UHGV virus genome: UHGV-1378242
Strand: one strand, 5' to 3'
Source: a virus
DNA: 23,616 bases
The first letter of the stretch is position 1; each line of letters begins with the position of its first letter. The notes under the pieces were generated by a model that saw only the letters and a list, made by a program, of their open reading frames with translations, was not told the DNA's origin and did not search any database. A program made the translations under genes and the position numbers. Below, piece by piece: positions 605-22,764 of the stretch.

Positions 605-1201
605 ATGATGCCTGCTGAACCTAAAGCCTATAAACGCAAATCAACGCAATTTAAGCCACTAACAGCAATGCAGGAGGCTTATTGCCAGTCATACATCAAA
701 ACGCCTGAAAACCAGACTCAGGCAGCGATTAACGCAGGATTCTCCCCAAATACAGCGGCAGTTAAAGCCAGTGTCATGATGCGCGATGAACGCATTCAAA
801 AACGGATTGCCGAGTTGATGGAGGAGCGCAACAAACGAATGCGCGTCAGTGCTGATTACGTTCTCATGCGCCTGGTGGAGATCGACCAGATGGACGTGAT
901 CGACATCCTCAACGACGATGGGAGCCTTAAGCCAATCCGCGAGTGGCCGAAAATCTGGCGCACTACGCTTAGTGGCTTTGATCTGTCATCGACCATCATG
1001 AACATGAACGAGGATTCGATAGAGACAATCCTCAAAAAAATTAAATGGCCTGACAAGGTGAAGAACCTCGAACTGATTGGTAAGCACGTCGACGTCAACG
1101 CATTCAAAGAACGCCTGGATGTTAATGTGAATGTGACAATTGCTGATCGCATAGCGGCAGCCAGGAAGAGACTGAAAGAACGTCAGGATGGCAATCAGTG
1201 A
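605..1201 (+). CDS. terS: Terminase small subunit
   Basis: Immediately upstream of terL, with its stop overlapping the terL GTG start. About 198 aa with a helical N-terminal region. Start placed at ATG 605 (GGTGG just upstream) rather than track start 527, because of the terminator and repeats at 536-597. Family assignment is by position and size, not a verified motif. Confidence 0.7.
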   Translation: MMPAEPKAYKRKSTQFKPLTAMQEAYCQSYIKTPENQTQAAINAGFSPNTAAVKASVMMRDERIQKRIAELMEERNKRMRVSADYVLMRLVEIDQMDVIDILNDDGSLKPIREWPKIWRTTLSGFDLSSTIMNMNEDSIETILKKIKWPDKVKNLELIGKHVDVNAFKERLDVNVNVTIADRIAAARKRLKERQDGNQ

Positions 1202-2673
1202 CAGATACAGCGTTATCTCCTGAAGAGCAGTTAATCGAGGATATTGCAGGGTTCACTCACGATCCGCTTGGCTATGCCCTCTATGCGTTCCCGTGGGGGG
1301 AAGAGGGGACTGAACTGGCACATGCCACCGGCCCACGTCAGTGGCAGGCTGATGCGTTCCGAGAGATACGTGATCACCTGCAGAATCCAGAGACGCGCTA
1401 TCAGCCGCTTATGCTGGCACGCGCTTCTGGTCACGGTATTGGTAAATCCGCATTCATCTCAATGCTGATCAACTGGGGCATGTCCACTTGCGAGGATTGT
1501 AAGGTCGTGGTGACCGCCAACACCGACAACCAGCTACGAACGAAGACCTGGCCGGAAATTATCAAGTGGTCGAACCTTGCTATCACGAAAGACTGGTTTA
1601 CCTGTACCGCTACCGCGATGTACAGCAATGACCTAGGGCACGACAAGCGGTGGCGGGCTGACGCAATACCCTGGTCTGAGCACAACACCGAGGCATTCGC
1701 CGGACTACACAACGAGCGCAAACGCATCATCGTGGTATTCGATGAAGCGTCGAACATTGCGGATCTGGTGTGGGAAGTTGCTGAGGGTGCGCTTACGGAC
1801 GAAGACACGGAAATTATCTGGGTGGCGTTTGGGAACCCGACGCGTAACACCGGGCGCTTCCGCGAATGCTTCCGCAAGTACAAGCACCGCTGGAAGTGCG
1901 CGCAGATTGACAGCCGCACCGTGGAAGGCACAAACAAGCAGCAGCTGCAGAAATGGGTTGACGACTACGGCGAAGACAGCGACTTCGTGAAGGTCCGCGT
2001 GCGGGGGATCTTCCCTGACGCGTCAGAACTCCAGTTTATCCCAACAGGCCTTACAGACGAGGCCATGAAGCGGGTGGTTACCGCTGCGCAGGTTGCACAT
2101 GCTCCGGTGATAATCGGTGTTGACCCGGCATATTCAGGCGTTGATGACGCGGTGATATACCTGCGGCAGGGGCTACACAGTAAGGTGCTGTGGACTGGCA
2201 ACAAGACTACCGACGATCTGATTATGGCGAAGCGTATCGCTGACTTTGAAGACCAGTATCAGGCTGACGCGGTGTTCATCGACTTCGGTTACGGAACCGG
2301 TTTGAAGTCAATCGGTGATGGCTGGGGACGTACATGGCAACTTGTTCCGTTCGGTGGCGCGTCTACTGACCCGCAGATGCTCAACAAGCGTGGGGAGATG
2401 TTCAACTCATGCAAGACATGGCTGAGGCTCGGCGGCATGCTGGATGACCAGGAAACTGCAGACGACCTGTCGGCGGCAGAGTACAAAGTTCGTGTGGACG
2501 GTAAAATCGTTATCGAACCGAAGGAAGATATCAAGGAGCGGCTTGGGCGTTCGCCGGGTAAAGGCGATGCGCTACTGCTGACGTTTGCGTTCCCTGTGTC
2601 TAAGCGTCTGCGAATTCCCGGGCAGCAGAACCAGCAAGGCAAGGCCATTACAGATTATGATCCCTATGCTTAA
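1198..2673 (+). CDS. terL: Terminase large subunit (ATPase/nuclease)
   Basis: 491 aa. Walker A-like ARASGHGIGKS, Walker B-like IIVVFDEAS, and nuclease-domain acidic motif IIGVDPAYSGVDD. GTG start overlaps the terS stop (GTGA). Confidence 0.9.
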   Translation: MTDTALSPEEQLIEDIAGFTHDPLGYALYAFPWGEEGTELAHATGPRQWQADAFREIRDHLQNPETRYQPLMLARASGHGIGKSAFISMLINWGMSTCEDCKVVVTANTDNQLRTKTWPEIIKWSNLAITKDWFTCTATAMYSNDLGHDKRWRADAIPWSEHNTEAFAGLHNERKRIIVVFDEASNIADLVWEVAEGALTDEDTEIIWVAFGNPTRNTGRFRECFRKYKHRWKCAQIDSRTVEGTNKQQLQKWVDDYGEDSDFVKVRVRGIFPDASELQFIPTGLTDEAMKRVVTAAQVAHAPVIIGVDPAYSGVDDAVIYLRQGLHSKVLWTGNKTTDDLIMAKRIADFEDQYQADAVFIDFGYGTGLKSIGDGWGRTWQLVPFGGASTDPQMLNKRGEMFNSCKTWLRLGGMLDDQETADDLSAAEYKVRVDGKIVIEPKEDIKERLGRSPGKGDALLLTFAFPVSKRLRIPGQQNQQGKAITDYDPYA

Positions 2674-2723
2674 TCCGTTAGCGGGGATAATGACGGAGAT
2701 ATCCTCTGGTGAGGATAAAACAA

Positions 2724-2743
2724 AGCCAGCTCATCGGCTGGCT
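2724..2743. terminator. Intrinsic terminator hairpin, likely bidirectional and more convincing for the minus strand
   Basis: AGCCAGC (2724-2730), loop TCATCG, GCTGGCT (2737-2743). On the minus strand it is followed by TTGTTTTAT; on the plus strand by GTTTGTG. It lies between the convergent terL and the 123-aa minus ORF. A second hairpin ATCCTC-TGGT-GAGGAT is at 2701-2716. Confidence 0.5.
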
Positions 2744-2747
2744 GTTT

Positions 2748-2759
2748 GTGACATGTCAC
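2748..2759. repeat. Copy 2 of GTGACATGTCAC
   Basis: Exact 12-mer, 4 bp past the terminator hairpin and 5 bp from the end of the minus-strand ORF 2764..3135. Confidence 0.6.
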
Positions 2760-2763
2760 GGTG

Positions 2764-3135
2764 TTATTGCTCGCTTAACTTCTGCTTCAGCAAGTAACCT
2801 TCAAGCATCCAGATTTTGTTTACAGCATTCTGCCGGGCAATCTTCCGACCAATTTCCGCATCAAAGTTTTCCGGGCTTGCACAGGCGCTCTCTCCGGTGA
2901 CGGTGAAGCCGTTGCGCAGCACCAGGACGCAGAACGTCAGCAGAGAAAGTGATTCGTGCGGCTGGTAGTTTACCTCTCCGCCAGTATGTTTCGCTTTTAT
3001 GGCTACGCCAAAGGCACCATCTTCTGCTGTGAAATATGCCTCCTGAGCAATAATGCTCTCGATATGGTCTGGCGTAACGCGCGGCGCGGCTAAACCTTTA
3101 GCCTGAATTTCAGATTCAATGTCTTTGTCACTCAT
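2764..3135 (-). CDS. Hypothetical protein (123 aa), minus-strand moron between terL and portal
   Basis: ATG at 3135 with AAGGTGAG upstream. Opposite orientation to the flanking late genes and downstream of the tRNA on the same strand. Terminator hairpin just past its stop. Family not recognised. Confidence 0.6.
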   Translation of the reverse strand: MSDKDIESEIQAKGLAAPRVTPDHIESIIAQEAYFTAEDGAFGVAIKAKHTGGEVNYQPHESLSLLTFCVLVLRNGFTVTGESACASPENFDAEIGRKIARQNAVNKIWMLEGYLLKQKLSEQ

Positions 3136-3329
3136 AGTCTAATCTCACCTTAAAAAAATGCCCGGCGAACCGGAAGCAATGAGTTATGCCTTCCGTGGCT
3201 GTACTGGTTTACAGCATGAAGTCATCGCAATGGCGTCCTGCTGTAAAAAGGGCGGTGATAGTCCTTCAAGGGAAACCATCACCGCCAAGCACCTGGAACT
3301 TCTGGCATCACGGTCCTTAGGCGTGATTC

Positions 3330-3406
3330 TGGCGTGGCATGCAGGATTCGAACCTGCGACCAACCGCTTAGAAGGCGGTTGCTCTGTCCAACTGAGCTAA
3401 TGCCAC
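3330..3406 (-). tRNA. tRNA-Arg (anticodon UCU, reads AGA), phage-borne argU-like
   Basis: Minus-strand 77 nt: GTGGCAT-TA-GCTC-AGTTGG-AC-AGAGC-A-ACCGC-CTTCTAA-GCGGT-TGGTC-GCAGG-TTCGAAT-CCTGC-ATGCCAC-G-CCA. Perfect 7-bp acceptor stem, D-loop, T-loop GGTTCGAATCC, anticodon loop CU-UCU-AA and encoded CCA. It resembles E. coli argU as I recall it, with compensatory stem changes. Confidence 0.9.
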
Positions 3407-3728
3407 AACGCTGAGAGCACTTAGCCTGTTAAGGCGCCACACTTTGTCGCGGCTCCATAAATGCTCTCATCGTTGTACCCTCGTCTCTTCCGAGGCGTCA
3501 CACCGAATCGCCGGGATGGTGAATCCCCGTGCGCGGAATAAAACCGCTCGACTTGCACATTCCGGCTACCTGGTTCGTTTGCCCGAGCAAGGGAGGGTGC
3601 CCCTTAAACGTATCCAGACCGCTATCGGCGCATGTGCCATACGCCGTACTGCTCAAAATAAAAGCTCACTCCACCTGTTCAATTTAACGACAAGCCAGTC
3701 AGGTTAGTAACCGGAATGAACTCTTTGG

Positions 3729-3744
3729 TTACCTGAAAGGTAAT
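3729..3744. promoter_or_regulatory. Operator-like inverted repeat TTACC-TGAAA-GGTAA (16-mer TTACCTGAAAGGTAAT)
   Basis: The same 16-mer recurs at 22646-22661. It sits in the 430-bp non-coding region between the tRNA and the portal operon, next to palindrome GGTTAGTAACC (3702-3712) and direct repeat GGTAATAATTT (3739-3749, 3801-3811). Confidence 0.45.
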
Positions 3745-3833
3745 AATTTGTGCGTTAAATGTCAACTATCTACGATAAATAAATCATATGTGGTTAAATT
3801 GGTAATAATTTAATTGCGTACGGAGTCATTGAT

Positions 3834-4040
3834 ATGTGCATGGGTAGCTCACCATCAGTGCCTGCAACACCAGAAGTTCAGGCAGCACCACAGGAGCAGG
3901 ATGCCGCCGTTGTTGATGCCCGCGACGAAGAAACACGTCGCCGTCGCGTTGCTGCTGGTCGTAGTTCTACGCTGCTTACCGGTTCTCAGGGCGACACATC
4001 AACCGCTAATACCAGCGGTAAAACGCTGCTTGGTCAGTAA
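3834..4040 (+). CDS. Hypothetical small protein (68 aa) just upstream of portal
   Basis: ATG at 3834 preceded by CGGAGTCATTGA, the same context that precedes the portal ATG. Codon usage is host-like and the stop lies 14 nt before the portal start. Overlapping track ORF 3814..4053 judged spurious. Confidence 0.4.
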   Translation: MCMGSSPSVPATPEVQAAPQEQDAAVVDARDEETRRRRVAAGRSSTLLTGSQGDTSTANTSGKTLLGQ

Positions 4041-4054
4041 CCGGAGTCATTGAA

Positions 4055-5734
4055 ATGGCGGAAACAACTAAAGAGCGATTGAACAAACAGTTCGCACAAC
4101 TTGAAAGCGAGCGTCAGTCGTTCGAGCCGCACTGGCGCGAGTTGAGTGATTACATCAACCCGCGTGGTTCCCGCTTTCTGACTTCTGAGGTTAACCGTAA
4201 CGATCGACGCAATACACGCATTATTGATTCGACCGGGACTATGGCGGCGCGCACTCTCGCCAGCGGCATGATGTCAGGCATCACAAGCCCCGCGCGTCCG
4301 TGGTTTCGCCTGGCTACGCCAGATCCTGAAATGATGGATTATGGCCCTGTTAAGTTGTGGCTTGAGGCGGTGCAGAACCGCATGAACGATATGTTCAATA
4401 AGTCGAATCTCTATCAGTCGCTGCCGCAGTTATACGGAAGCCTCGGCACATACAGCACTGGTGCAATGGCAGTGCTGGAGGATGACGAGGACATCATTCG
4501 CACAATGCCATTCCCGATAGGCAGTTACTACCTGGCTAACTCACCTCGTGGCAGTGTGGACACCTGTTTTCGCAAGTTCTCTATGACTGTTCGTCAGCTT
4601 GTTCAGGAGTTCGGACTAAATAACGTCAGCGAATCCGTAAAAAGCATGTGGGAAAGCGGCACCTACGAGAAGTGGATTGAAGTGATGCATTCGGTTTACC
4701 CGAACATTGACCGCGATACATCGAAGCTGGATAGCAAGAACAAGCCATTCAAATCGGTTTATTACGAGGTTGGTGGCGATAACGACAAGTTGTTGCGTGA
4801 GTCCGGATTCGATGAGTTTCCAATTATGGCTCCGCGCTGGGAAGTTAACGGCGAAGATGTTTATGGATCATCATGCCCGGGTATGCTGGCGCTTGGATCT
4901 GTTAAGGCATTGCAGCTTCTTCAGAAGCGCAAGTCGCAGTTGATTGATAAAGCCACCAATCCGCCGATGGTTGCTCCGACTTCCCTCAAGAATCAGCGTG
5001 CCTCCCTTCTTCCTGGCGACATCACGTATATCGATCAGATTACTGGTCAGGATGGTTTCAGGCCTGCTTATCTGGTTAACCCCAGTACAGCAGATTTGGT
5101 GGCAGACATTCAGGACACTCGTCAAATCATTAACAGCGCCTACTTTGTCGATCTGTTCATGATGTTGCAGAACATCAATACCCGCTCGATGCCTGTTGAA
5201 GCGGTGATCGAAATGAAAGAAGAAAAACTTCTGATGTTGGGGCCGGTTCTGGAGCGTCTGAACGACGAATGTCTTAATCCTCTCATTGACCGCTCTTTCT
5301 CGATGATGGTGCGTAAAAACATGCTGCCGCCACCGCCAGACGTGATGGAAGGTATGCCCCTGAAGGTCGAATACATTTCCGTCATGGCTCAGGCGCAGAA
5401 GTCTATCGGCCTGTCCAGTCTGGCGTCCACGGTTAACTTCATTGGTCAACTTGCGCAAGCGAAACCAGAAGCTCTCGACAAACTCAACGTTGATCAGGCG
5501 ATCGATGCATTCGCTGATATGTCCGGAGTGTCTCCAACCGTCATTGTTCCGCAGGAACAGGTTGAGCAGGCTCGCCAGCAACGGGCACAGCAACAACAGC
5601 AGCAACAAATGATGGCGATGGGGATGGCGGCGGCACAGGGTGCCAAGACGCTAAGCGAAGCTAAAACTTCGGATCCGAGTGTTTTGTCAGCTATGGCGAA
5701 TGCAGTTAGTGGTCAGGGTGGGCAATCACAATGA
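4055..5734 (+). CDS. Portal (head-to-tail connector) protein, T7 gp8-like
   Basis: 559 aa, first gene of the coupled structural operon, followed by scaffold and capsid. Gln/Met/Ala-rich C-terminal tail (…QQQQQQQMMAMGMAAAQG…) resembles the T7 connector C-terminus as I recall it. GGAG 9 nt before the ATG. Confidence 0.8.
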   Translation: MAETTKERLNKQFAQLESERQSFEPHWRELSDYINPRGSRFLTSEVNRNDRRNTRIIDSTGTMAARTLASGMMSGITSPARPWFRLATPDPEMMDYGPVKLWLEAVQNRMNDMFNKSNLYQSLPQLYGSLGTYSTGAMAVLEDDEDIIRTMPFPIGSYYLANSPRGSVDTCFRKFSMTVRQLVQEFGLNNVSESVKSMWESGTYEKWIEVMHSVYPNIDRDTSKLDSKNKPFKSVYYEVGGDNDKLLRESGFDEFPIMAPRWEVNGEDVYGSSCPGMLALGSVKALQLLQKRKSQLIDKATNPPMVAPTSLKNQRASLLPGDITYIDQITGQDGFRPAYLVNPSTADLVADIQDTRQIINSAYFVDLFMMLQNINTRSMPVEAVIEMKEEKLLMLGPVLERLNDECLNPLIDRSFSMMVRKNMLPPPPDVMEGMPLKVEYISVMAQAQKSIGLSSLASTVNFIGQLAQAKPEALDKLNVDQAIDAFADMSGVSPTVIVPQEQVEQARQQRAQQQQQQQMMAMGMAAAQGAKTLSEAKTSDPSVLSAMANAVSGQGGQSQ

Positions 5735-6027
5735 CAGATTACGAAGATGATCAACTGAAAGAAGAAAACGCCCGTAAGCAACGTGACATGGCACAGCGTG
5801 AAATTGATGACATTCGCTTTGTCATGAGCAGTGAACAGGGGCGTCGCGTTGTCTGGTCGGTGCTGGAGAAAGGCCGTGTGTTTTCCGCTATCTCACCGAT
5901 GGACGCTATGGCAATGGCATTTAATGAGGGGCAACGCAATCTGGCGCTGGAACTGTTTCAGCGCGTTATGGCGCATTGCCCTGAACAGTATTTGAAGATG
6001 GCCAAAGAGGCCAGTGAACAGGAGTGA
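5731..6027 (+). CDS. Hypothetical protein (98 aa) between portal and scaffold
   Basis: ATG overlaps the portal stop (ATGA). Charged, helical-looking sequence. Confidence 0.55.
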   Translation: MTDYEDDQLKEENARKQRDMAQREIDDIRFVMSSEQGRRVVWSVLEKGRVFSAISPMDAMAMAFNEGQRNLALELFQRVMAHCPEQYLKMAKEASEQE

Positions 6028-6029
6028 TC

Positions 6030-6725
6030 ATGAATTTATTTGAGCGTTTGCTGTATCGCCGTCTTTGCAATGAGCAACCAGTCGATGGTGGAGCAGCTCC
6101 GGCTGCGTCAGAACCGTCAGCGCCTGCAGGTGATAACCCTGCTCCAGTTGGTGATCCATCACAACAGGAAGGTGATAAGCCACAACCTGTTGCTGATGGC
6201 GATAAACCTGCTGATGACAAAAAGCCTGAAAACGATAAGCAGGATGAAAAAAAGGACGGCGATAAACCAGAGGGTGCGCCTGAAAAGTACGAGTTTCAGG
6301 CTGCCGAAGGCGTAGAGCTGGATACAGAAGCGTTGAAGGAATTCGAGCCGGTGGCGCGAGAACTAAACCTGACCAACGAGCAAGCGCAAAAGCTGGTTGA
6401 TGCTTATCCGAAGATTCTGGCAGGTGTGCAGCAGCGCCAGGCAGAAGCCTGGCAGAAAACAACCGAGCAGTGGGCTGCTGATGTAAAAGCTGACAAAGAA
6501 ATCGGTGGCGACAAGTTGATTTCTAACCTTAGCGCCGCACAGCGTGCGCTTGACCAGTTCGGGACACCTGAACTCAAAGAATATCTGAACACCACCGGGC
6601 TGGGTAATCACCCTGATCTGGTCAAAACGTTCGTGAAAATCGGAAAGGCGATGTCTGAAGATGGCATGGTCACCGGTAGTAATGAAGGCCAGCGTAGTGC
6701 GGCCGAAGTGCTCTATGGCAAATAA
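6030..6725 (+). CDS. Putative scaffolding protein
   Basis: About 231 aa, immediately upstream of the capsid gene. Acidic, Pro/Ala/Asp/Lys-rich low-complexity N-terminal half and a helical C-terminal half. Start taken as ATG 6030 (GGAG 5 nt upstream) rather than GTG 6024. Confidence 0.6.
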   Translation: MNLFERLLYRRLCNEQPVDGGAAPAASEPSAPAGDNPAPVGDPSQQEGDKPQPVADGDKPADDKKPENDKQDEKKDGDKPEGAPEKYEFQAAEGVELDTEALKEFEPVARELNLTNEQAQKLVDAYPKILAGVQQRQAEAWQKTTEQWAADVKADKEIGGDKLISNLSAAQRALDQFGTPELKEYLNTTGLGNHPDLVKTFVKIGKAMSEDGMVTGSNEGQRSAAEVLYGK

Positions 6726-6733
6726 GAGAGGAA

Positions 6734-7726
6734 ATGACAATGGCTGTTAAAGGCTTAACTGCGCTAACGCTGGCTGACTGGGGTAAGCGCGTCGATCCAA
6801 ACGGGAAAGTCGATAAGATTATCGAGCTTCTCGGTCAAACTAACCCGATCCTTCAGGATATGCCTTTTGTCGAAGGGAACCTTCCTACCGGACACCGAAC
6901 CACCATTCGTTCTGGTTTACCTTCAGCTACCTGGCGTTTGCTGAACTATGGCGTACAGCCAAGCAAATCAACCACAGTGCAGGTAACCGATTCCGTTGGC
7001 ATGCTGGAAACCTATGCGGAAGTCGATAAGTCACTGGCTGATCTGAACGGCAATACCGCCGAATTCCGCCTTTCTGAAGACCGCGCATTTATTGAAGCGA
7101 TGAATCAGCAGATGGCGCAGACGCTGTTTTATGGTGATTCCAGCGTTAATCCTCAGCAGTTTATGGGACTGTCCTCCCGCTATTCCAGCCTGTCTGCGGG
7201 TAATGCTCAGAACATCATTGATGCTGGTGGCACGGGTACAGATAACACCTCAATCTGGTTAGTGGTGTGGGGCGAAAACACCGTGCATGGCATCTTCCCG
7301 AAAGGGCAGAAGGCTGGCATCCAGATGGAAGATAAAGGCCAGGTGACACTGGAAGATGCTAATGGCGGCAAGTACGAAGGCTATCGCACCCATTACAAAT
7401 GGGATAACGGACTTGCTCTGCGTGACTGGCGTTATGTTGTTCGCATTGCAAACATCGATGTCAGCAATCTTTCAGAACCATCCTCTGCCGCAAATATTGC
7501 GAAGTTGATGGTTAAAGCACTGCATCGCATTCCAAACCGTGGCATGGGCCGCCCGGTGTTCTACATGAACCGCACTGTAGGCCAGGCTCTTGATCTGCAG
7601 TCTCTGGAGAAAACATCTCTGGCTATCAGCGTAAAAGAGACAGAAGGCGAGTGGTGGACTTCATTCCGTGGTGTACCAATCCGTGAAACTGATGCGCTTC
7701 TGGAAACAGAAGCCCGCGTGGTGTAA
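6734..7726 (+). CDS. Major capsid protein
   Basis: 330 aa, directly after the scaffold gene, with a strong RBS (GAGG). Assigned by position and size in the portal-scaffold-capsid order. Alternative start at ATG 6740. Confidence 0.7.
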   Translation: MTMAVKGLTALTLADWGKRVDPNGKVDKIIELLGQTNPILQDMPFVEGNLPTGHRTTIRSGLPSATWRLLNYGVQPSKSTTVQVTDSVGMLETYAEVDKSLADLNGNTAEFRLSEDRAFIEAMNQQMAQTLFYGDSSVNPQQFMGLSSRYSSLSAGNAQNIIDAGGTGTDNTSIWLVVWGENTVHGIFPKGQKAGIQMEDKGQVTLEDANGGKYEGYRTHYKWDNGLALRDWRYVVRIANIDVSNLSEPSSAANIAKLMVKALHRIPNRGMGRPVFYMNRTVGQALDLQSLEKTSLAISVKETEGEWWTSFRGVPIRETDALLETEARVV

Positions 7727-7777
7727 CGCCTGTTATTAACCTGTGGGTCGTAACAGACCCACTAATGGAGAAAGAAG

Positions 7778-8215
7778 ATGATCACCGACAAACTGTTGAT
7801 GTTCTCCGAAGCACAGGCGGTAACTGATACCGCGGCTTCTACTGACGTAATCGATCTCGGTCCAATTGACGGAAAACGTCGTGATATCGGCGTGGGTTAC
7901 CCGCTTGAGTTTTGGGCGCTGGTTAACACAGCCGCCGCAGCAAGCGGTGATGCAACTGTAAACATCCAGTTGCAGACGAGTGAGGATAACAGCTCATGGA
8001 CCACTATTTATGATAGTGGTGCACTGGCAAAGACCGCCCTGACAGCAGGTAAACGAGTTGTTTCTGCAAAGGTGCCTGCCGGTGTTCAGCGATATCTGCG
8101 TGTTAACTACTCCGTCGCAACTGGCCCGCTAACGGCTGGCGAATTCACTGCTGGTATCAGTCTTGATGTTGATGCCAATACGCCGTATCCGATCCGCTCA
8201 AAAGTAACTGGTTAA
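7778..8215 (+). CDS. Hypothetical head-associated protein (145 aa), possible capsid decoration or accessory protein
   Basis: Follows the capsid gene after a GTGGGTC-loop-GACCCAC stem-loop (7744-7763). GGAG upstream of the ATG. Confidence 0.5.
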   Translation: MITDKLLMFSEAQAVTDTAASTDVIDLGPIDGKRRDIGVGYPLEFWALVNTAAAASGDATVNIQLQTSEDNSSWTTIYDSGALAKTALTAGKRVVSAKVPAGVQRYLRVNYSVATGPLTAGEFTAGISLDVDANTPYPIRSKVTG

Positions 8216-8611: not shown

Positions 8612-8935
8612 ATGGAACTCGTAAACCTCAAAACCGGCACTGACAGCTACCAGGATGAGAGCGGAGAAACCAGAACTCGCGATGAATACCCGTGGGGGCT
8701 GTGCATCACTCTTAATAACGACACATTGAATAAGCTGAAGGCGCAACCTCAGGGCGTCGGAACAGAAGTGATGATAACTGCAAAAGCTGTTATTCGAGGC
8801 CTGTCTGCCAGAGAAACTGACGATGGTGTTAATCGCAGCGCCGATCTGCAGATCACTGATATGGCGATCGCTCCTGTTTCCGGGGATGTAGAAAAATCAG
8901 CGGCTGAAACCCTGTACGGCAATGGGGGTGAGTAA
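8612..8935 (+). CDS. Hypothetical protein (107 aa)
   Basis: ATG 8612 with AGGAG 5 nt upstream. Its C-terminus …EKSAAETLYGNGGE resembles the scaffold C-terminus …QRSAAEVLYGK. Confidence 0.5.
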   Translation: MELVNLKTGTDSYQDESGETRTRDEYPWGLCITLNNDTLNKLKAQPQGVGTEVMITAKAVIRGLSARETDDGVNRSADLQITDMAIAPVSGDVEKSAAETLYGNGGE

Positions 8936-9540
8936 TGGCCTCTGTAGTAGAGATCTGCAATCGTGCGCTGTCCAATATTGGCAATAGCCGCAGCATTAAC
9001 AGCCTGACGGAAGCCAGCAAGGAAGCGGGGGAATGTTCGCTGCACTTTGAGGCCTGCCGTGATGCTGTGCTTTCTGATTTTGACTGGAACTTTGCTACCA
9101 AACGCGTGGCGCTTGCAGATACGAGCAATCCACCGCCTGACTGGGAATATGCGTATCAGTACCCGTCCGATTGTCTGCGCATTACTGAAATTATGCTTCC
9201 TGGTGTACGCAATCCAACAGCAGCAATGCGCGTTCAGTACGAAGTTGGTGCAGACACCAACGGAACAGGAAAGTTGATCTACACAGACCAGCCGCAGGCA
9301 TGGCTCAAGTATGTCTCTCGCGTTTCAGATGTGAACATGTTTGATGCCATTTTTATGGAGGCGTTGGCCTGGCGTCTTGCGGCAGCTATTAACATGGCGC
9401 TGACTGGGAATGCAGACCTCGGTACGTTTGCCCTCAATATGTACAATCGCGTGATTCTTAGTGCTGGCTCGCATAGCCAGAATGAATCACAGGAACCACT
9501 GCCACCGGTTGACGAGTTTACCATTGCGAGGTTGTCCTGA
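8935..9540 (+). CDS. Putative tail adaptor (T7 gp11-like tubular protein A)
   Basis: 201 aa, start overlaps the upstream stop (TAATG). Size and position match the T7 gp11 slot ahead of an approximately 800-aa nozzle-like protein. Homology not verified. Confidence 0.5.
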   Translation: MASVVEICNRALSNIGNSRSINSLTEASKEAGECSLHFEACRDAVLSDFDWNFATKRVALADTSNPPPDWEYAYQYPSDCLRITEIMLPGVRNPTAAMRVQYEVGADTNGTGKLIYTDQPQAWLKYVSRVSDVNMFDAIFMEALAWRLAAAINMALTGNADLGTFALNMYNRVILSAGSHSQNESQEPLPPVDEFTIARLS

Positions 9541-12011
9541 TGGCTATCAGTTGGATCCAGCCCAGCTTTGCCGGTGGTGAGATTGGACCGTCGTTGTACG
9601 GTCGTATTGACATGGCGAAGTACCAGGTGGCATTGCGCAAGTGCGATAACTTTATCGTGCGGCAGTATGGCGGAGTTGAGAATCGACCTGGTACGCGTTT
9701 TGTCGGTGCCGCCAAATACCCAAATCGGAAATGCCGCCTGATCCCGTTCCAGTTCTCGACGGTTCAGACTTATGCTCTGGAGTTCGGACACCAGTACATG
9801 CGCGTTATCAAAGATGGTGCGTTGGTGCTGAACAGCAGCAATGTTATTTATGAAATTTCCACGCCATATACTGAAGCCGATCTGTTCCGAATTAAATTCA
9901 CGCAAAGCGCAGACGTGCTTACGCTGGTTCATCCGGCATACCCGCCGAAAGAGTTGCGCCGCTATGCGCATGACAACTGGCAACTGGTTGATGTGGTAAC
10001 GAAGAACGGGCCATTTGAAGATATCAATATTGACGAGTCAGTGACGGTTTATGCCAGCGCCAGCACCGGGACAATTACGCTAACGGCAAGCGCCTCTATT
10101 TTTGGCGCGGAGCAGGTAGGCAAATTGTTCTATCTGGAACAGCCTGCAGTGGATTCTGTGCCGGTATGGGAAACCAGTAAGAGTACGTCGATTGGCGATA
10201 TTCGCCGTGCAGACAGTAACTACTATCGCGCCGTTACAGCAGGCAAAACAGGTACTTTGCGCCCTTCGCATACAGAAGGCACATCATGGGATGGCTGGGG
10301 CGGATCCGGTGATGATGATACTGGCATTGAGTGGGAATATCTGCACAGTGGTTTTGGCATTGCCCGTATCACTGCTGCAAATGGAACTACTGCAACTGCC
10401 GAGGTGATTTCCTATATCCCTTCGCAGGTCGTGGGCGAGGATAATGCCAGCTATAAATGGGCTAAATATGCCTGGAACAGTGTTAATGGTTATCCTGGCA
10501 CTGTTGTTTATTATCAACAACGTCTTTACTTCGCCGCATCGACTGCGTTTCCTCAGACTATCTGGGCCAGCCGTACCGGGGATTATAAGGATTTTGGCAA
10601 AAGCAATCCTACGCAGGATGACGACAGAATTATCTACACCTATGCCGGGCGTCAGGTTAATGAGATCCGTCACCTGATTGATGTTGGTTCGCTGGTGGCG
10701 CTGACTTCCGGAGGTGAGTACGTCATCACTGGCGACCAGAACAAAGTGCTTACCCCATCATCATTTGCATTCAGCTCTCAGGGATCAAATGGCTCGAGCA
10801 ATGTCCCACCAATTGCCGTGGCGAATATTGCTCTGTTCGTCCAGGAGAAAGGCAGTGTTGTCCGTGATCTGGCCTACTCATTCGATGTTGACGGCTATCA
10901 GGGGAACGACCTTACTATCCTTGCCAATCATCTTTTTCAGAAGCACAGCATTGTTGACTGGTGCTTCTCGATAGTCCCTTACTCCAGCGCCTTCTGCATT
11001 CGTGATGACGGTAAATTACTGGTGATGACCTATTTGCGTGATCAACAGGTTTTTGCATGGGCACCACAGTCCAGTACCGGAAAATATGAAAGCACATGCA
11101 GTATCAGCGAAGGCAATGAAGATGCGGTGTATTTCGTCATTAACCGAACCGTTAACGGGCAAACAGTGAGATACATCGAGCGACTGTCCAGCCGTTTATT
11201 TACCAGCGATGAAGATGCTTTCTTTGTTGATTCTGGCCTTAGCTATGATGGAAGAAATACGTCTGACAGAACGATGATCATCACTGGTGGTTCTGGCGAA
11301 TGGGATTACCGCGCGGAATATACAATCAGTGTTTCTGGTGGTGCGTACTTCACCAGTAGTGATGTCGGCGCGCAACTACAGTTCCCTTATACCGGAACTG
11401 ATCCTGATACTGGCGATGAGGTGTCAAAAGAATTACGTTGCGACATTATTTCTGTAACCAGCAATACCGCTGTAGTGGTTCGTGCTAACAGGAACGTCCC
11501 GCCATCCCTCAGGAATGTGGCCACCACGAACTGGCAGATGGCGCGCCGGACATTTGGCGGCTTGTCTCATCTTGAAGGCCAGACCGTAAACATCCTCTCT
11601 GATGCGAACGTGGAACCACAGAAAGTGGTTTCCGGAGGTGCCGTCACGCTGGAATCTCCGGGGGCTGTAGTGCACATCGGCCTGCCAATAACTGCTGAAT
11701 TCGAAACACTGGATATCAACATTAACGGACAGGAAACGCTGCTGGACAAAAAACAGGTGATCCCGTCTGTTACTCTGGTTGTGAATGCCAGTCGCGGCAT
11801 CTGGGCGACTACGCCCGGCGGTAAATGGTACGAATATCCACAGCGTGAATTCGAGTTCTACGATGATCCTGTTGATGACGCTACCGGAAAAGTAGAAGTG
11901 AAACTGGACAGTAACTGGGGCAAAAACGGACGTGTAAAAATCCGTCAGCTTGACCCGTTGCCGCTGTCTGTTCTTGCCGTTATTCCTCGCCTTACTGTTG
12001 GGGGATTCTGA
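9540..12011 (+). CDS. Putative tail nozzle (T7 gp12-like tubular protein B)
   Basis: 823 aa, translationally coupled (TGATG). Size and synteny match T7 gp12. Confidence 0.55.
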   Translation: MAISWIQPSFAGGEIGPSLYGRIDMAKYQVALRKCDNFIVRQYGGVENRPGTRFVGAAKYPNRKCRLIPFQFSTVQTYALEFGHQYMRVIKDGALVLNSSNVIYEISTPYTEADLFRIKFTQSADVLTLVHPAYPPKELRRYAHDNWQLVDVVTKNGPFEDINIDESVTVYASASTGTITLTASASIFGAEQVGKLFYLEQPAVDSVPVWETSKSTSIGDIRRADSNYYRAVTAGKTGTLRPSHTEGTSWDGWGGSGDDDTGIEWEYLHSGFGIARITAANGTTATAEVISYIPSQVVGEDNASYKWAKYAWNSVNGYPGTVVYYQQRLYFAASTAFPQTIWASRTGDYKDFGKSNPTQDDDRIIYTYAGRQVNEIRHLIDVGSLVALTSGGEYVITGDQNKVLTPSSFAFSSQGSNGSSNVPPIAVANIALFVQEKGSVVRDLAYSFDVDGYQGNDLTILANHLFQKHSIVDWCFSIVPYSSAFCIRDDGKLLVMTYLRDQQVFAWAPQSSTGKYESTCSISEGNEDAVYFVINRTVNGQTVRYIERLSSRLFTSDEDAFFVDSGLSYDGRNTSDRTMIITGGSGEWDYRAEYTISVSGGAYFTSSDVGAQLQFPYTGTDPDTGDEVSKELRCDIISVTSNTAVVVRANRNVPPSLRNVATTNWQMARRTFGGLSHLEGQTVNILSDANVEPQKVVSGGAVTLESPGAVVHIGLPITAEFETLDININGQETLLDKKQVIPSVTLVVNASRGIWATTPGGKWYEYPQREFEFYDDPVDDATGKVEVKLDSNWGKNGRVKIRQLDPLPLSVLAVIPRLTVGGF

Positions 12012-12475
12012 TGATCTACGTTCAAATTATTCCCGCTACCGAAGAGCATCTTCAGATGATTTTGCCGGATGTTCGTCAGGCTGATATTGACGAATTGTAT
12101 GCGGTATCACTGATGACTACCGAAGATGCACTGCGTGTTGGTCTGCGTACTGCGACTATGGCCTGGTCAGGATTTGCGAACGGAGAACTGGTAACCATGT
12201 TTGGCGTATCTCCGGCGTCAATGATCGGTGGCAATGGTACGCCCTGGCTGGTCGGAACCAGCCGTATTGAAAAATATCAGAAGACATTTCTTCGCCACTG
12301 CCGCCCTGTATTGCAGCAGATGCTGGCAGTTTATCCGCGCCTGGAAAACTACGTCGACGAGCGAAACCATGTTGCCAAAGCATGGCTGCACTGGCTTGGA
12401 TTCAGGCTTGAAGAAGCCGCGCCTTATGGTGCTCTTGGTCTTAATTTCCACAGATTTCACATGGAGAGAAAATAA
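12011..12475 (+). CDS. Hypothetical virion protein (154 aa) in the T7 gp13 position
   Basis: Coupled start (TGATG). Confidence 0.5.
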   Translation: MIYVQIIPATEEHLQMILPDVRQADIDELYAVSLMTTEDALRVGLRTATMAWSGFANGELVTMFGVSPASMIGGNGTPWLVGTSRIEKYQKTFLRHCRPVLQQMLAVYPRLENYVDERNHVAKAWLHWLGFRLEEAAPYGALGLNFHRFHMERK

Positions 12476-13050
12476 TGTGCGATCCGGTTATTGCTGGTGG
12501 CGCAATGCTCGCCATGAGTGGCATTCAGGCATACACCCAGTACCAACAGGGAAAGTATGCCTCGAAGGTTGCAGAAGCGAACGCAGATATAGCCACAGCT
12601 CAGGCAAATGATGCAATAAACAGAGGTAACGCTGAAGCTGAGCAACGACGCAGAGAGACCCGACAGCGGCTTGGTACACAGGCGGCGACAATGGGGGCTA
12701 CCGGCGCTGATTTATCTACAGGTAACGCGCTGGATATATTTGGCGACACTGCCCAGTTTGGCGCTCTTGATTCGCTGACGACGGTGAATAACGCGCAACG
12801 CGAGGCTTACGGTTATCAGGTTCAGGCTGCCAACTATAAAGCAGAAGCCAGTTCAGCCCGTAAACAGGGGAATGTGGGAGCAGCAACAACATTGCTCACT
12901 GCGCCTCTGAAGGCATACGGTGCGTACCAGATGTTTGGTGGGACGTGGAGTCCGTTCTCTAAAGGAAGTACATCTAGTGGTGGGACGCCAATGTTATCTA
13001 ACTCAGGTTTTATGAATTCTGACTCCCGATTCAAAATAGGAGGTTACTGA
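12475..13050 (+). CDS. Putative internal virion protein (191 aa) in the T7 gp14 position
   Basis: Coupled start (TAATG). Ala/Gln/Gly-rich, with a hydrophobic N-terminal segment. Confidence 0.5.
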   Translation: MCDPVIAGGAMLAMSGIQAYTQYQQGKYASKVAEANADIATAQANDAINRGNAEAEQRRRETRQRLGTQAATMGATGADLSTGNALDIFGDTAQFGALDSLTTVNNAQREAYGYQVQAANYKAEASSARKQGNVGAATTLLTAPLKAYGAYQMFGGTWSPFSKGSTSSGGTPMLSNSGFMNSDSRFKIGGY

Positions 13051-17104: not shown

Positions 17105-17109
17105 ATTAA

Positions 17110-22028: not shown

Positions 22029-22142
22029 CACCGCAACGCCAATTACTGGTGGTGAACTGGACAAGGTTGGCGTACCGGCCTAAGTGGTACCGGCGTCCTT
22101 TCGGACCCCTGCCCAGCCCACCATAATTCGGATATAGCTGTG

Positions 22143-22164
22143 CTTAACGCATAAAAAAACCACG
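22143..22164 (-). terminator. Candidate intrinsic terminator after the 85-aa gene
   Basis: Minus strand: CCACG-CCAGA-CGTGG followed by TTTTTTT. The stem is short (5 bp). Further hairpins lie upstream at 22181-22225. Confidence 0.4.
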
Positions 22165-22263
22165 TCTGGCGTGGTATGCGCCACTTAGTAACCCGGGACG
22201 CCAATCCCGGCACTGGATTTTGCCAGTGCCCGATTACTATGGCACAAGAGGAGTGCGATGTAA

Positions 22264-22311: not shown

Positions 22312-22569
22312 TTATCTGGTTTGTTTTCGTAATTGTTCGGCACAATAGTCGAGATGTGTTTGCAGATCCTGCATAGACATCTGTGAGCTGGTGACGTAGT
22401 TAATCAGTGCAGTCAGTTCGGCAAGTGGGCCATCGACATTAAATCCATCCTTATCGAGATCCCGGAGTAATTTCATCAAGTGCGATCCCTCCACCAGTGA
22501 CCTGACGCCTCCCGGCGTGTGAATCCTTTCGGTAAATCCGTCTTCCAGTGGATAGTGATACTGCTGCAT
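22312..22569 (-). CDS. Small LexA-controlled protein (85 aa), antirepressor-like, paralogous to the C-terminal domain of the Bro-N protein
   Basis: ATG 22569 with GGAGAA upstream; the track ORF is N-terminally over-extended. Aligns with the Bro-N C-terminus on IH-P-GV, LM-LL, AELT and QTH-Y. A LexA box lies 20-40 bp upstream. Confidence 0.6.
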   Translation of the reverse strand: MQQYHYPLEDGFTERIHTPGGVRSLVEGSHLMKLLRDLDKDGFNVDGPLAELTALINYVTSSQMSMQDLQTHLDYCAEQLRKQTR

Positions 22570-22588
22570 CTTATCTTCTCCATGCAAT

Positions 22589-22608
22589 AACTGTATATTT
22601 ATACAGTA
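22589..22608. promoter_or_regulatory. LexA (SOS) box
   Basis: AACTGTATATTTATACAGTA matches the consensus TACTGTATATATATACAGTA at 18 of 20 positions, with perfect CTGT-N8-ACAG. Positioned over the putative promoter of the minus-strand 85-aa gene, in the divergent region shared with the tailspike gene. Confidence 0.7.
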
Positions 22609-22644
22609 GCAAATAATTTGTTTGCTATCCAGCACGTTTTGCAA

Positions 22645-22661
22645 ATTACCTGAAAGGTAAT
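22645..22661. promoter_or_regulatory. Operator-like inverted repeat ATTACC-TGAAA-GGTAAT
   Basis: Contains the 16-mer TTACCTGAAAGGTAAT identical to 3729-3744. About 40 bp upstream of the LexA box. A half-site-like CAGGTAAT follows at about 22706-22713. Confidence 0.45.
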
Positions 22662-22764
22662 ATCTATTCGTATTTACAGTCTTTCTATCCATATGTGGTT
22701 TTTCAGGTAATAGAATAACCAGATATGCGGCGCAACGGGTGCTGCGACTATCTGGAGATTTAAC

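What the first reader, a model, noticed from the sequence alone, without database searches (positions are those of the whole stretch)
2764..3406. tRNA-Arg(UCU) plus reverse-oriented ORF inserted between terL and portal
A complete argU-like tRNA and a 123-aa gene form a minus-strand unit with its own terminator, splitting the packaging and head genes. Phage-borne AGA-decoding tRNAs are known as codon-usage supplements. Such a tRNA could also act as a decoy or replacement against tRNA-cleaving defences, since anticodon nucleases targeting tRNA-Arg exist (for example colicin D). The adjacent protein is unrecognised and could be functionally linked.
Basis: partly seen in the sequence, partly recalled or inferred. 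Interest (0 to 1): 0.5.

Follow-up and report, generated by a model that had tools for sequence, protein, structure and literature searches.

The report
Phage tRNA, anti-CBASS gene, unannotated RNA
The tRNA is a real arginine tRNA that helps read a codon rare in E. coli, and the neighbouring gene is an already catalogued inhibitor of a bacterial immune system. The new item is an unannotated, conserved folded RNA directly upstream of the tRNA, also found in about a third of complete E. coli genomes.

Summary
tRNA-Arg(UCU) lies at 3330-3406 (-) and a 123-aa ORF at 2764-3135 (-), between terL and portal of a phiV10-like podophage. The tRNA derives from argU and keeps its identity elements. AGA codons are 8-fold enriched in the phage genes, so a codon-supplement role is supported. 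Nothing supports a decoy role. The ORF is not unrecognised. It belongs to Pfam PF13876, the Acb4 anti-CBASS sponge family, and its phiV10 orthologue is already listed in the Acb4 paper. tRNA and ORF are inherited independently and two terminators separate them, so no functional link is supported. The tRNA is instead joined to a ~240-nt unannotated RNA (3407-3646, -), here called E-RNA. It has five covarying helices, one of them a pseudoknot, and no Rfam match. It occurs in 1,840 of 5,426 complete E. coli genomes, in P1-like plasmids, lambdoid prophages and podophages. It always shares the strand of adjacent tRNAs, often follows P_L, and lies upstream of all 21 nearby Acb4/Tad2 genes. Its function is unknown. 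It is dispensable, is not a put homologue, and is probably an accessory stable RNA or a read-through leader.

The parts
3737..3765 (-). Candidate sigma-70 promoter of the leftward unit: TTGACA (3760-3765), 17 nt, TACCTT (3737-3742)
   Evidence: My own scan, the sequence and coordinates. It is conserved about 90 nt upstream of the E-RNA in 18 phiV10-type loci. It was below the threshold of the standard scan. This is a prediction only.
3407..3646 (-). E-RNA: an unannotated structured RNA. P1 hairpin 3626-3646. P2 (3614-3618 with 3569-3573) encloses a variable domain at 3574-3613. Conserved 19-mer GGUAGCCGGAAUGUGCAAG at 3552-3570. P4 variable hairpin 3529-3551. P5 3513-3527, whose loop CACC pairs with GGUG at about 3500-3503 (pseudoknot). 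P6 3479-3495. The 3' domain at 3406-3475 has a closing stem that uses tRNA G1.
   Evidence: Alignments A1, A2 and A5. Covariation: 13 of 27 and 14 of 23 pairs change on both sides, reached by 0 of 500 shuffles. Covariance model score 150.9 bits, a single copy in the window. No Rfam match at E<=10. Not coding. Pairing is 95.6% on the minus strand against 82.4% on the plus strand.
3330..3406 (-). tRNA-Arg(UCU), argU-derived, with CCA encoded
3245..3286 (-). Terminator-like hairpin T1 (14-bp stem followed by CUUUUU) after the tRNA
   Evidence: All 26 tRNA-Arg-type loci have a terminator after the tRNA.
3152..3174 (-). Terminator-like hairpin T2 (CCGG-UUCG-CCGG followed by a U-run), about 25 nt before the acb4 start codon. 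It marks the boundary of the swappable ORF slot.
   Evidence: Similarity to TL-2011b begins at about window 3161.
2764..3135 (-). acb4-family gene, 123 aa (Pfam PF13876, predicted cyclic-dinucleotide sponge against CBASS). The Shine-Dalgarno sequence AAGGUGAG lies just upstream.
   Evidence: Pfam E=2.4e-35. PDB 9e4w matched by sequence at E=0.007. The AlphaFold2 model's top 13 Foldseek hits are all 9e4w. The phiV10 orthologue Q287B5 appears in Table S3 of the Acb4 paper.
2724..2743 (.). Bidirectional terminator hairpin shared by terL (+) and the leftward unit (-)
   Evidence: Annotated as a terminator in phiV10.

Best explanation
The finding is the downstream two-thirds of a leftward accessory cassette in a phiV10/epsilon15-type temperate podophage. 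The cassette is built from three independently mobile modules. (1) A predicted promoter at 3737-3765 drives a ~240-nt pseudoknotted RNA of a family not in Rfam, which I call E-RNA. (2) The E-RNA runs directly into an argU-derived tRNA-Arg(UCU); the last pair of its closing stem uses tRNA G1. RNase P cleavage at the tRNA 5' end would therefore free both RNAs (inferred). The tRNA supplies AGA decoding for the phage's AGA-rich tail/injection and accessory genes; the sequence features and codon bias are shown, while expression and charging are inferred. (3) After two terminator-like hairpins comes acb4, a member of the published Acb4 sponge family. It should sequester CBASS cyclic dinucleotides early in infection; family membership is shown, while ligand binding is inferred. 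tRNA and Acb4 share a recombination hot-spot and are not functionally coupled. For the E-RNA, I commit to an optional accessory RNA that is matured with the tRNA and acts as a stable RNA, probably by binding a protein through its conserved single-stranded blocks. A cis role in transcriptional read-through is the main alternative.
For: Phage identity: 98.7% identical to phiV10. tRNA. Codon bias: AGA 6.13 against 0.76 per 1000, p=3e-12. Acb4. Modularity: TL-2011b carries a different ORF with the rest 99% identical. A Klebsiella phage has a Tad2-like gene in the slot. phiv142-3 has the tRNA and E-RNA but no ORF. epsilon15 has Acb4 but no tRNA and only a degenerate E-RNA. Tyrion has the E-RNA but no tRNA. 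An Stx2a phage has the ORF alone at 95% identity. E-RNA is real: covariation, strand asymmetry, non-coding. E-RNA is widespread and unannotated: 1,840 of 5,426 E. coli genomes, more than 120 IMG/VR contigs and 24 stretches in species-representative genomes, nearly all Enterobacterales. tRNA coupling: in 46 of 129 loci a tRNA adjoins the E-RNA, always on the same strand (29 Arg-UCU at the 3' side, 17 Ile2-CAU at the 5' side). Accessory and dispensable: SfV is 95-97% identical to cdtI on both sides but has the E-RNA precisely replaced. A Stenotrophomonas phage has the arrangement promoter, E-RNA, strong terminator.
Against: There are no expression data. The promoter, RNase P processing, tRNA charging and Acb4 ligand binding are all inferred. 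Three Acb4 ligand contacts are conserved (F48, F62, I66 align to F77, F91, I95) but three differ (E49, Y57, T70 align to T78, A86, I99), so ligand specificity is uncertain. The head genes contain no AGA at all, so the tRNA is irrelevant to the most abundant late proteins. A trans-acting role for the E-RNA is not a demonstrated mechanism. In most P_L-type loci the E-RNA has no terminator of its own (6 of 50 by my scan). All 21 neighbouring sponge genes lie downstream on the same strand, which fits a cis role at least as well. The E-RNA copies were gathered through an exact 19-mer, so that block's invariance in A2 and A5 is partly circular. It was, however, invariant in the seven BLAST-derived copies of A1.
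Confidence: 0.72

Rival explanations
1. The E-RNA is a cis-acting processive antiterminator or read-through leader that works like HK022 put. The nascent RNA modifies RNA polymerase so that it passes T1 and T2 and reaches acb4. In lambdoid carriers it would let polymerase transcribe the early-left operon without an N protein.
For: In cdtI-type phages the E-RNA starts about 50 nt downstream of a near-consensus, operator-bearing promoter just after cI, which is the nutL/putL position. This is the arrangement in 56 of 129 loci. These phages have no N gene (PMC3851460). In the window, acb4 sits behind two terminator hairpins with only about 25 nt before its ATG, leaving no room for its own promoter. 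All 21 Acb4/Tad2 genes near an E-RNA lie immediately downstream on the same strand, in three independent architectures. In L027 the P_L operon must cross reverse-oriented morons.
Against: SfV has the same promoter, the same downstream terminator-like hairpin and the same early-left genes, but neither the E-RNA nor N. epsilon15 keeps T2 and acb4 with only a degenerate E-RNA. No second copy lies downstream of P_R. There is no sequence or structure similarity to put. In P1 it sits about 3 kb from the ban promoter. Only 6 of 50 P_L-type loci have a canonical intrinsic terminator within 600 nt.
Confidence: 0.3
2. One reading: the tRNA is a decoy or replacement for host tRNA-Arg cleaved by an anticodon nuclease such as colicin D, and it works together with the adjacent protein as a counter-defence pair.
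For: Phage tRNAs that rescue infection from tRNA-cleaving defences are well documented (PARIS, PMC11464382; retron Ec78, PMC11555353; P2 OLD, PMC12445682; hypothesis paper PMC10264068). The neighbouring gene is an anti-defence gene. The anticodon stem differs from argU at positions 29-30 and 40-41.
Against: The anticodon loop is identical to argU, which is unlike the loop changes proposed for nuclease evasion (PMC10264068). The defence papers I read report Lys-UUU, Tyr-GUA and Thr-UGU as targets, not Arg-UCU. tRNA and ORF assort independently. Acb4 targets cyclic-nucleotide signalling, not tRNA cleavage. Strong AGA enrichment is a sufficient explanation for the tRNA.
Confidence: 0.08
3. The E-RNA is a ligand-sensing leader (riboswitch) or a self-cleaving ribozyme that controls or processes the downstream tRNA and anti-defence transcript.
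For: It has a pseudoknotted fold with highly conserved unpaired blocks. The 19-mer can alternatively pair with the P1 apex (GCACAU with AUGUGC) and with the P2 strand, giving two mutually exclusive folds. It lies upstream of sponge genes. Small ribozymes are common next to phage tRNAs (my own knowledge).
Against: In the phiV10 type a whole tRNA separates the E-RNA from the terminators, which does not suit a conventional expression platform. The alternative pairing involves only invariant bases, so it has no covariation support. There is no match to any Rfam riboswitch or ribozyme. No candidate ligand or cleavage site was identified.
Confidence: 0.1
4. The conserved block next to the tRNA is not an RNA gene. 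It would instead be a small protein-coding ORF, as annotated in several records, or a double-stranded DNA site such as attP or a recombination site. Relatedly, the tRNA would be an attP remnant.
For: ORFs of 52-87 aa overlap the block and are annotated as hypothetical proteins in some records. Host argU is a prophage integration site, with intD lying next to it. Mosaic junctions coincide with the element's edges.
Against: Lengths show no mod-3 preference (37, 32, 13), substitutions have no 3-periodicity, and 19 of 82 versions have no open frame. Compensatory changes occur in every helix. 13.9% of paired cells are G.U, which would be A.C mismatches on the other strand. The tRNA is full length with its own compensatory stem changes, and no integrase lies beside it.
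Confidence: 0.02

Closest known systems
SPO1 Acb4 and the Pfam PF13876 family (anti-CBASS 4; Chang et al., bioRxiv 10.1101/2024.12.30.630793; PDB 9e4w)
   Same: The ORF matches PF13876 at 121 bits. The predicted fold matches 9e4w (probability 1.0, target-normalised TM 0.60-0.69). The ENF(D/N)xEIGR segment and the aromatic or hydrophobic contacts F48, F62 and I66 are conserved. The phiV10 orthologue is in the paper's list of 1,331 homologues.
   Different: Only 23% identity to the SPO1 protein. It has a longer N-terminal region (123 aa against 96 aa). The guanine-reading E49 and the phosphate contacts Y57 and T70 are replaced. This protein has not itself been tested. The paper reports that homologues from Gram-negative phages additionally bind 3'3'-cAA.
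Phage-borne rare-codon tRNAs, such as the P1 tRNAs and other argU-like tRNAs in temperate coliphages
   Same: A full-length tRNA that should be chargeable. It decodes AGA, a codon rare in E. coli, in a phage whose genes are 8-fold enriched for that codon. The tRNA is annotated as tRNA-Arg in several related phage records.
   Different: It is fused at its 5' end to a structured RNA. It lies between terL and portal on the opposite strand. The head genes beside it use no AGA at all.
HK022 putL/putR antiterminator RNAs (PMC9378689)
   Same: In 56 loci the E-RNA lies just downstream of the early-left promoter of lambdoid phages that lack N. It is a folded nascent RNA in the position of nutL or putL.
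   Different: No sequence or covariance-model similarity. It is 170-240 nt with five helices including a pseudoknot, against about 70 nt and two stem-loops. There is a single copy and no P_R partner. It is dispensable in SfV. It also occurs in P1 and in podophages, outside early operons.
ROOL and GOLLD RNAs (PMC12286853), and the T4 tRNA-cluster stable RNAs species 1 and 2 (the T4 RNAs from my own knowledge)
   Same: Phage or prophage structured non-coding RNAs of unknown function that sit next to tRNA genes, supported by covariation.
   Different: There is no Rfam match to ROOL or GOLLD. The E-RNA is much smaller (about 240 nt against 580 to over 800 nt). It is restricted to phages of Enterobacterales. 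It is often not next to a tRNA at all, being a P_L leader in 56 of 129 loci.

Membership tests
Bacterial elongator tRNA-Arg (argU type) | Canonical cloverleaf scored by tRNA models | tested here: met
   ARAGORN. Rfam RF00005 at 73.3 bits against a gathering score of 29.
Bacterial elongator tRNA-Arg (argU type) | Anticodon UCU and the ArgRS identity elements A20, C35, U36 and G73 (the element list is from my own knowledge) | tested here: met
   Alignment to K-12 argU. The anticodon loop CUUCUAA, the D-arm with A20, and G73-CCA are identical. All stem differences are compensatory.
Bacterial elongator tRNA-Arg (argU type) | Expressed, processed and aminoacylated | not testable with these tools
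   There is only a predicted promoter and terminators.
Acb4 / Pfam PF13876 | Match to the family HMM above the curated cut-off | tested here: met
   121.3 bits against a cut-off of 27, E=2.4e-35. PF13876 is equated with Acb4 in two papers.
Acb4 / Pfam PF13876 | Protomer fold: a three-stranded antiparallel beta core flanked by N-terminal helices and a long C-terminal helical extension | tested here: met
   AlphaFold2 model with pLDDT 79.8 and strands at 29-36, 66-73 and 78-84 plus a long C-terminal helix. The top 13 Foldseek PDB hits are all 9e4w; the next unrelated hit has E=0.19.
Acb4 / Pfam PF13876 | Ligand-contact residues of SPO1 Acb4 (K36, F48, E49, V56, Y57, F62, N63, I66, T70, K81) | tested here: inconclusive
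   From the phmmer alignment and the residue list. F48, F62 and I66 are conserved as F77, F91 and I95. N63 aligns to D92, a backbone contact. E49, Y57 and T70 align to T78, A86 and I99. K36 and K81 fall outside the aligned stretch.
Acb4 / Pfam PF13876 | Homotetramer that binds 3'3'-cGAMP or cUA and blocks CBASS | not testable with these tools
   Only a monomer was modelled. The paper reports that 8 of 8 tested homologues bound 3'3'-cGAMP, but this protein was not among those named.
HK022 put antiterminator RNA | Sequence or structure homology to putL/putR (about 70 nt, two stem-loops) | tested here: not met
   nhmmer and the covariance model, with filters off, found nothing in the HK022 genome. 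The only 16-mer match lies inside nun.
HK022 put antiterminator RNA | Located just downstream of P_L, with a second copy downstream of P_R | tested here: inconclusive
   The P_L position is met in 56 loci. No second copy was found within 1.6 kb of P_R in cdtI.
HK022 put antiterminator RNA | Confers terminator read-through on RNA polymerase | not testable with these tools
   The anatomy is suggestive (the order is E-RNA, T1, T2, acb4), but SfV lacks the element.
Any Rfam 15 family (including ROOL, GOLLD, riboswitches, ribozymes, known enterobacterial sRNAs) | Covariance-model match | tested here: not met
   Nothing in 3407-3833 at the gathering score or at E<=10 with permissive filters. NCBI's RefSeq annotation of 2,474 places in E. 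coli genomes lists no feature there.
Structured non-coding RNA (generic) | Base pairs maintained by compensatory substitutions beyond controls; not coding; strand-specific | tested here: met
   A2: 13 of 27 pairs change on both sides, against 7.2 +/- 1.3 in shuffles (0 of 500) and at most 6 in slid controls. A5: 14 of 23 pairs (0 of 500). Coding test negative. Pairing 95.6% on the minus strand against 82.4% on the plus strand.

The most novel reading that the evidence does not exclude
The E-RNA would be a new class of phage regulatory RNA that heads accessory and anti-defence transcription units. It would act either as an RNA-only processive antiterminator unrelated to put, or as a leader that senses an infection or immune signal. 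Either way it would control expression of sponge genes (Acb4, Tad2) and of the early-left operons of N-less lambdoid phages.
Probability: 0.25. Interest if true: 0.85.

Novelty: new variant of a known kind. Interest (0 to 1): 0.6.

Why it matters
As written, the finding is ordinary. It is a codon-supplement tRNA next to a catalogued anti-CBASS sponge gene. It does show that the terL-portal junction of phiV10/epsilon15-type phages is a swappable anti-defence slot, holding Acb4, a Tad2-like gene or unknown ORFs in different phages. That makes it a place to look for new counter-defence genes, such as the 115-aa phrog_3163 ORF of TL-2011b. The more valuable result is the E-RNA. It is a covariation-supported, pseudoknotted RNA present in about a third of complete E. 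coli genomes, in P1-type plasmids and in Stx-converting prophages. It is absent from Rfam and from genome annotation, and in several records it is mis-annotated as small hypothetical proteins. Its fixed position upstream of tRNAs, of sponge genes and of the early-left operons of N-less lambdoid phages yields hypotheses that can be tested directly in standard E. coli systems. K-12 lacks it, at least at its CPS-53 prophage, which may explain why it was overlooked.

Tried and rejected
(1) Homology to HK022 put: nhmmer and the covariance model found nothing. A 16-mer match lies inside the nun coding sequence and is chance. (2) Known RNA family: Rfam at the gathering score and at E<=10 found nothing. 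(3) Small-ORF explanation: rejected. (4) A second, putR-like copy: none in the window or in cdtI. Only L027 has a tandem, degenerate second copy. (5) The rule 'a terminator always follows the E-RNA': true for the tRNA-Arg class (26 of 26) but for only 6 of 50 P_L-class loci in my scan, which misses long-loop hairpins. (6) The E-RNA as an obligatory N substitute: rejected, because SfV has neither. (7) Presence in the K-12 CPS-53 prophage: absent. (8) Literature: no paper contains the 19-mer. Searches on put/HK639, SfV antitermination and the P1 ban/trnI transcriptome found no description of this RNA. The searchable library is limited, so prior description cannot be excluded. (9) A tRNA-Arg(UCU)-specific defence nuclease: none found in the papers read. 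(10) Pfam on other slot occupants and on the first genes downstream of P_L gave mostly no hits: DUF551 in Tyrion and Tad2-like in a P1-like locus. (11) A resemblance of the P6 loop (GAAGAGA) to the lambda nutL boxB loop, and of UGCUCUC to boxA, is recalled from memory only and was not tested. The boxA-like string is base-paired in the 3' domain.
Full report
OBSERVATION. The window is a phiV10-like Uetakevirus, 98.7% identical to NC_007804 over 2600-4100. ARAGORN finds one tRNA, tRNA-Arg with anticodon tct, at 3330-3406 on the minus strand. Rfam tRNA scores 73.3 bits. The 123-aa ORF at 2764-3135 (-) is real. It lies between terL (1198-2673) and portal (4055-5734; Pfam Head-tail_con, E=7e-188). 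A hairpin terminator at 2724-2743 follows the ORF.

THE tRNA. Its closest host gene is argU, at 85.9% identity in K-12 W3110 (563,947-564,023). In the alignment every difference is either a compensatory change in the acceptor or anticodon stem, or lies in the variable loop or at position 20a. The D-stem, the T-arm, the anticodon loop CUUCUAA, A20, C35, U36 and the G73-CCA end are all identical. It therefore looks like a functional tRNA under purifying selection. It shows none of the anticodon-loop changes proposed for nuclease evasion (PMC10264068).

CODON USE. In 22 credible genes of the window (6,685 codons) AGA is 6.13 per 1000 and AGG is 2.54 per 1000. In 48 annotated K-12 genes (14,482 codons) the figures are 0.76 and 0.62 (Fisher p=3e-12 for AGA). 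The bias is uneven. There are 0 AGA codons in 1,924 head-gene codons (terL to major capsid), 25 in 3,544 tail/injection codons, and 16 in 1,217 codons of small accessory and regulatory genes. The acb4 gene itself uses no AGA or AGG. The defence papers I read report Lys-UUU, Tyr-GUA and Thr-UGU as targets, not Arg-UCU. The decoy or replacement idea remains possible but has no evidence here.

THE ORF. It matches Pfam PF13876 (Phage_gp49_66) at E=2.4e-35. Two papers equate PF13876 with the Acb4 family of anti-CBASS cyclic-dinucleotide sponges, founded on Bacillus phage SPO1 Acb4, a 96-aa tetramer that binds 3'3'-cGAMP and cUA. By sequence the ORF hits PDB 9e4w (Acb4) at E=0.007. An AlphaFold2 model (pLDDT 79.8) has 9e4w chains as its top 13 Foldseek PDB hits (probability 1.0, target-normalised TM 0.60-0.69, 23% identity). 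The next unrelated hit has E=0.19. Table S3 of the Acb4 paper already lists the phiV10 protein Q287B5, which differs from this ORF by two residues, together with the epsilon15, Sf6 and N4 proteins. Of the SPO1 ligand contacts, F48, F62 and I66 are conserved, while E49, Y57 and T70 are not. The ligand range is therefore uncertain. The ORF is a known kind of gene and is already catalogued.

ARE tRNA AND ORF A FUNCTIONAL PAIR? The evidence says no, because relatives show every combination:
- TL-2011b is 99% identical from about 3161 onward but carries a different 115-aa ORF (phrog_3163).
- Klebsiella phage ST512-KPC3phi13.3 has a Tad2-like (PF11195) anti-Thoeris gene in the slot.
- phiv142-3 has no ORF there.
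- SPN1S has a 64-aa ORF and Tyrion has several small ORFs.
- epsilon15 keeps Acb4 but has no tRNA.
- An Stx2a phage carries the ORF alone.
The slot between terL and T2 is thus a recombination hot-spot that collects anti-defence genes.

WHAT THE tRNA IS ACTUALLY ATTACHED TO. The stretch 3407-3833 is unannotated or carries dubious small ORFs in every record. Yet 3407-3647 is about 80% identical to unannotated DNA in unrelated phages: lambdoid phages (cdtI, mEp460, 2H10, Stx2c and Stx2a prophages), P1, P7, D6 and SJ46, and Klebsiella and Stenotrophomonas phages. An alignment of seven divergent copies shows invariant blocks separated by hairpins whose stems change in a compensatory way. I call this element the E-RNA.

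E-RNA STRUCTURE. Using the conserved 19-mer GGTAGCCGGAATGTGCAAG I collected more than 120 viral contigs and 24 stretches from bacterial genomes, giving 101 distinct versions. A hand-drawn structure (P1, P2, P5, P6 and a pseudoknot between the P5 loop and a downstream GGUG) was counted on a MAFFT alignment of 24 representatives sharing under 90% identity. It pairs 94.9% of cells, against 85.6% in shuffles. Thirteen pairs change on both sides, against 7.2 +/- 1.3 in shuffles (0 of 500) and at most 6 when partners are slid. On 82 distinct model-aligned sequences, 14 of 23 pairs change on both sides (0 of 500). G.U pairs make up 13.9% of paired cells. Pairing is therefore 95.6% on the minus strand but only 82.4% on the plus strand, which identifies the transcribed strand. 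The element is not coding: lengths show no mod-3 preference, there is no 3-periodicity, and 19 of 82 versions have no open frame. A 3' domain (3406-3475) has a conserved closing stem and a hypervariable interior. The last base pair of that stem uses tRNA G1, and tRNA-less copies keep the same GUGG junction. There is no Rfam match at E<=10. No paper in the searchable library contains the 19-mer. One caveat: collecting copies by the exact 19-mer makes that block's invariance partly circular and narrows the apparent host range.

E-RNA DISTRIBUTION AND CONTEXT. It occurs in 1,840 of 5,426 complete E. coli genomes. Of the 2,474 places found, 554 are on plasmids, and none is annotated. Among species-representative genomes it is found almost only in Enterobacterales. 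K-12 lacks it at CPS-53. Across 129 loci there are three main contexts:
- 29 loci have tRNA-Arg(UCU) abutting the 3' end.
- 17 loci have tRNA-Ile2(CAU) about 18 nt upstream, as in the P1 ban operon. Adjacent tRNAs are always on the E-RNA's strand.
- 56 loci have the E-RNA directly downstream of a cI-type repressor gene.
In cdtI the order is cI, terminator, near-consensus promoter with an operator-like palindrome (P_L), about 50 nt, then the E-RNA. That is the position of nutL or putL. These phages have no annotated N gene (PMC3851460). Among 156 loci, all 21 Acb4-like or Tad2-like genes within 3.5 kb lie immediately downstream on the same strand, in three independent architectures. One of these is a P1-like variant with the order trnI, E-RNA, Tad2-like gene.

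WHAT THE E-RNA DOES. Its function is not shown. Two models fit best.

(a) A cis-acting read-through leader that works like put. This model explains several things: the P_L position, the downstream orientation of all the sponge genes, and the fact that acb4 in the window sits behind T1 and T2 with no room for its own promoter. The evidence against it is as follows. There is no homology to put and no copy on the P_R side. SfV is 95-97% identical to cdtI through cI and the promoter, and again from a shared terminator-like hairpin into the early-left genes, yet has the E-RNA cleanly replaced by other cargo. epsilon15 keeps T2 and acb4 with only a degenerate remnant of the E-RNA.

(b) An optional, moron-like stable RNA that is released with the tRNA by tRNA-processing enzymes and acts in trans. 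This fits its dispensability, its movement as a discrete module between P1, lambdoid phages and podophages, its fusion to tRNAs, and the arrangement promoter, E-RNA, strong terminator in a Stenotrophomonas phage. It also fits the precedent of ROOL and GOLLD, which lie near tRNA islands.

I rate (b) slightly above (a), at roughly 0.4 against 0.3. A riboswitch or ribozyme reading is about 0.1.

VERDICT. The tRNA and ORF are individually ordinary: an annotated tRNA-Arg with real codon-bias support, and a catalogued Acb4 homologue. They are not a functional pair. The novel element lies just outside the stated coordinates. It is a widespread, unannotated, covariation-supported RNA that heads the same transcription unit.

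Noticed in passing
window 22045-22229 (-): Rfam hits to C4 antisense RNA (22045-22128, 66 bits) and to isrK Hfq-binding RNA (22153-22229, 67.7 bits) lie side by side next to small minus-strand ORFs. This looks like a P1-c4/immI-type antisense immunity module in this podophage.
   Followed up: no
window 1198-8215 versus 8935-19584: The head genes (terL to major capsid) contain no AGA codons in 1,924 codons. The tail/injection genes have 25 in 3,544 (p=2.5e-5), and small accessory ORFs (145-486, 22312-23181) are even richer. This suggests a mosaic origin or differing dependence on the phage tRNA.
   Followed up: partly
window 3158-3400 (+) and 3444-3707 (+); phiV10 PhiV10p04; mEp460_036/037; cdtI orf40: Public records annotate 'hypothetical protein' ORFs that lie antisense to the tRNA or overlap the E-RNA. 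These are probably mis-annotations. RefSeq phiV10 lacks the tRNA feature altogether.
   Followed up: partly
L002 2526-2873 (TL-2011b); L157 1052-1246 (SPN1S); L159 740-1621 (Tyrion): Other occupants of the slot that holds acb4 in this window: a 115-aa phrog_3163 protein, a 64-aa ORF, a DUF551 protein and a 123-aa ORF with no family. Because Acb4 and Tad2 occupy the same slot in relatives, these are candidate anti-defence genes.
   Followed up: partly
L027 3986-4966 (IMGVR_UViG_2791355294_000005): Two E-RNA copies, one intact and one degenerate (its 19-mer reads GCTGGAAGCTGGAATGTGCAAG), flank a reverse-oriented 166-aa membrane-protein moron just downstream of P_L.
   Followed up: partly
L043, L066, L072, L103, L112 (P1-like contigs): A 191-aa protein with a Tad2-like domain sits directly downstream of trnI and the E-RNA, where classic P1 has ban. 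P1-type plasmid prophages therefore also use this position for an anti-Thoeris-type gene.
   Followed up: partly
L104, region 3' of the E-RNA core: The 3' domain is replaced by sequence containing a tRNA-like T-arm (GGTTCGATTCC) and an acceptor-like end. ARAGORN reported no tRNA near the element at this locus. It may be a tRNA fragment or an att-site junction.
   Followed up: no
L008 1135-1656 (Klebsiella phage) and PHROG phrog_9467: The Klebsiella slot protein combines an N-terminal domain (matching phrog_9467 profile positions 1-65) with a Tad2-like domain. The same PHROG profile's C-terminal part matches the Acb4 domain of the window ORF. This suggests domain shuffling between sponge families, as reported for Acb4-Tad2 fusions.
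   Followed up: no
window 3834-4040 (+): A 68-aa ORF just upstream of portal (the epsilon15 gp3 homologue) ends in a conserved ...STLLTGSQG...GKTLLGQ motif that is also present in the Klebsiella phage homologue. Its function is unknown.
   Followed up: no
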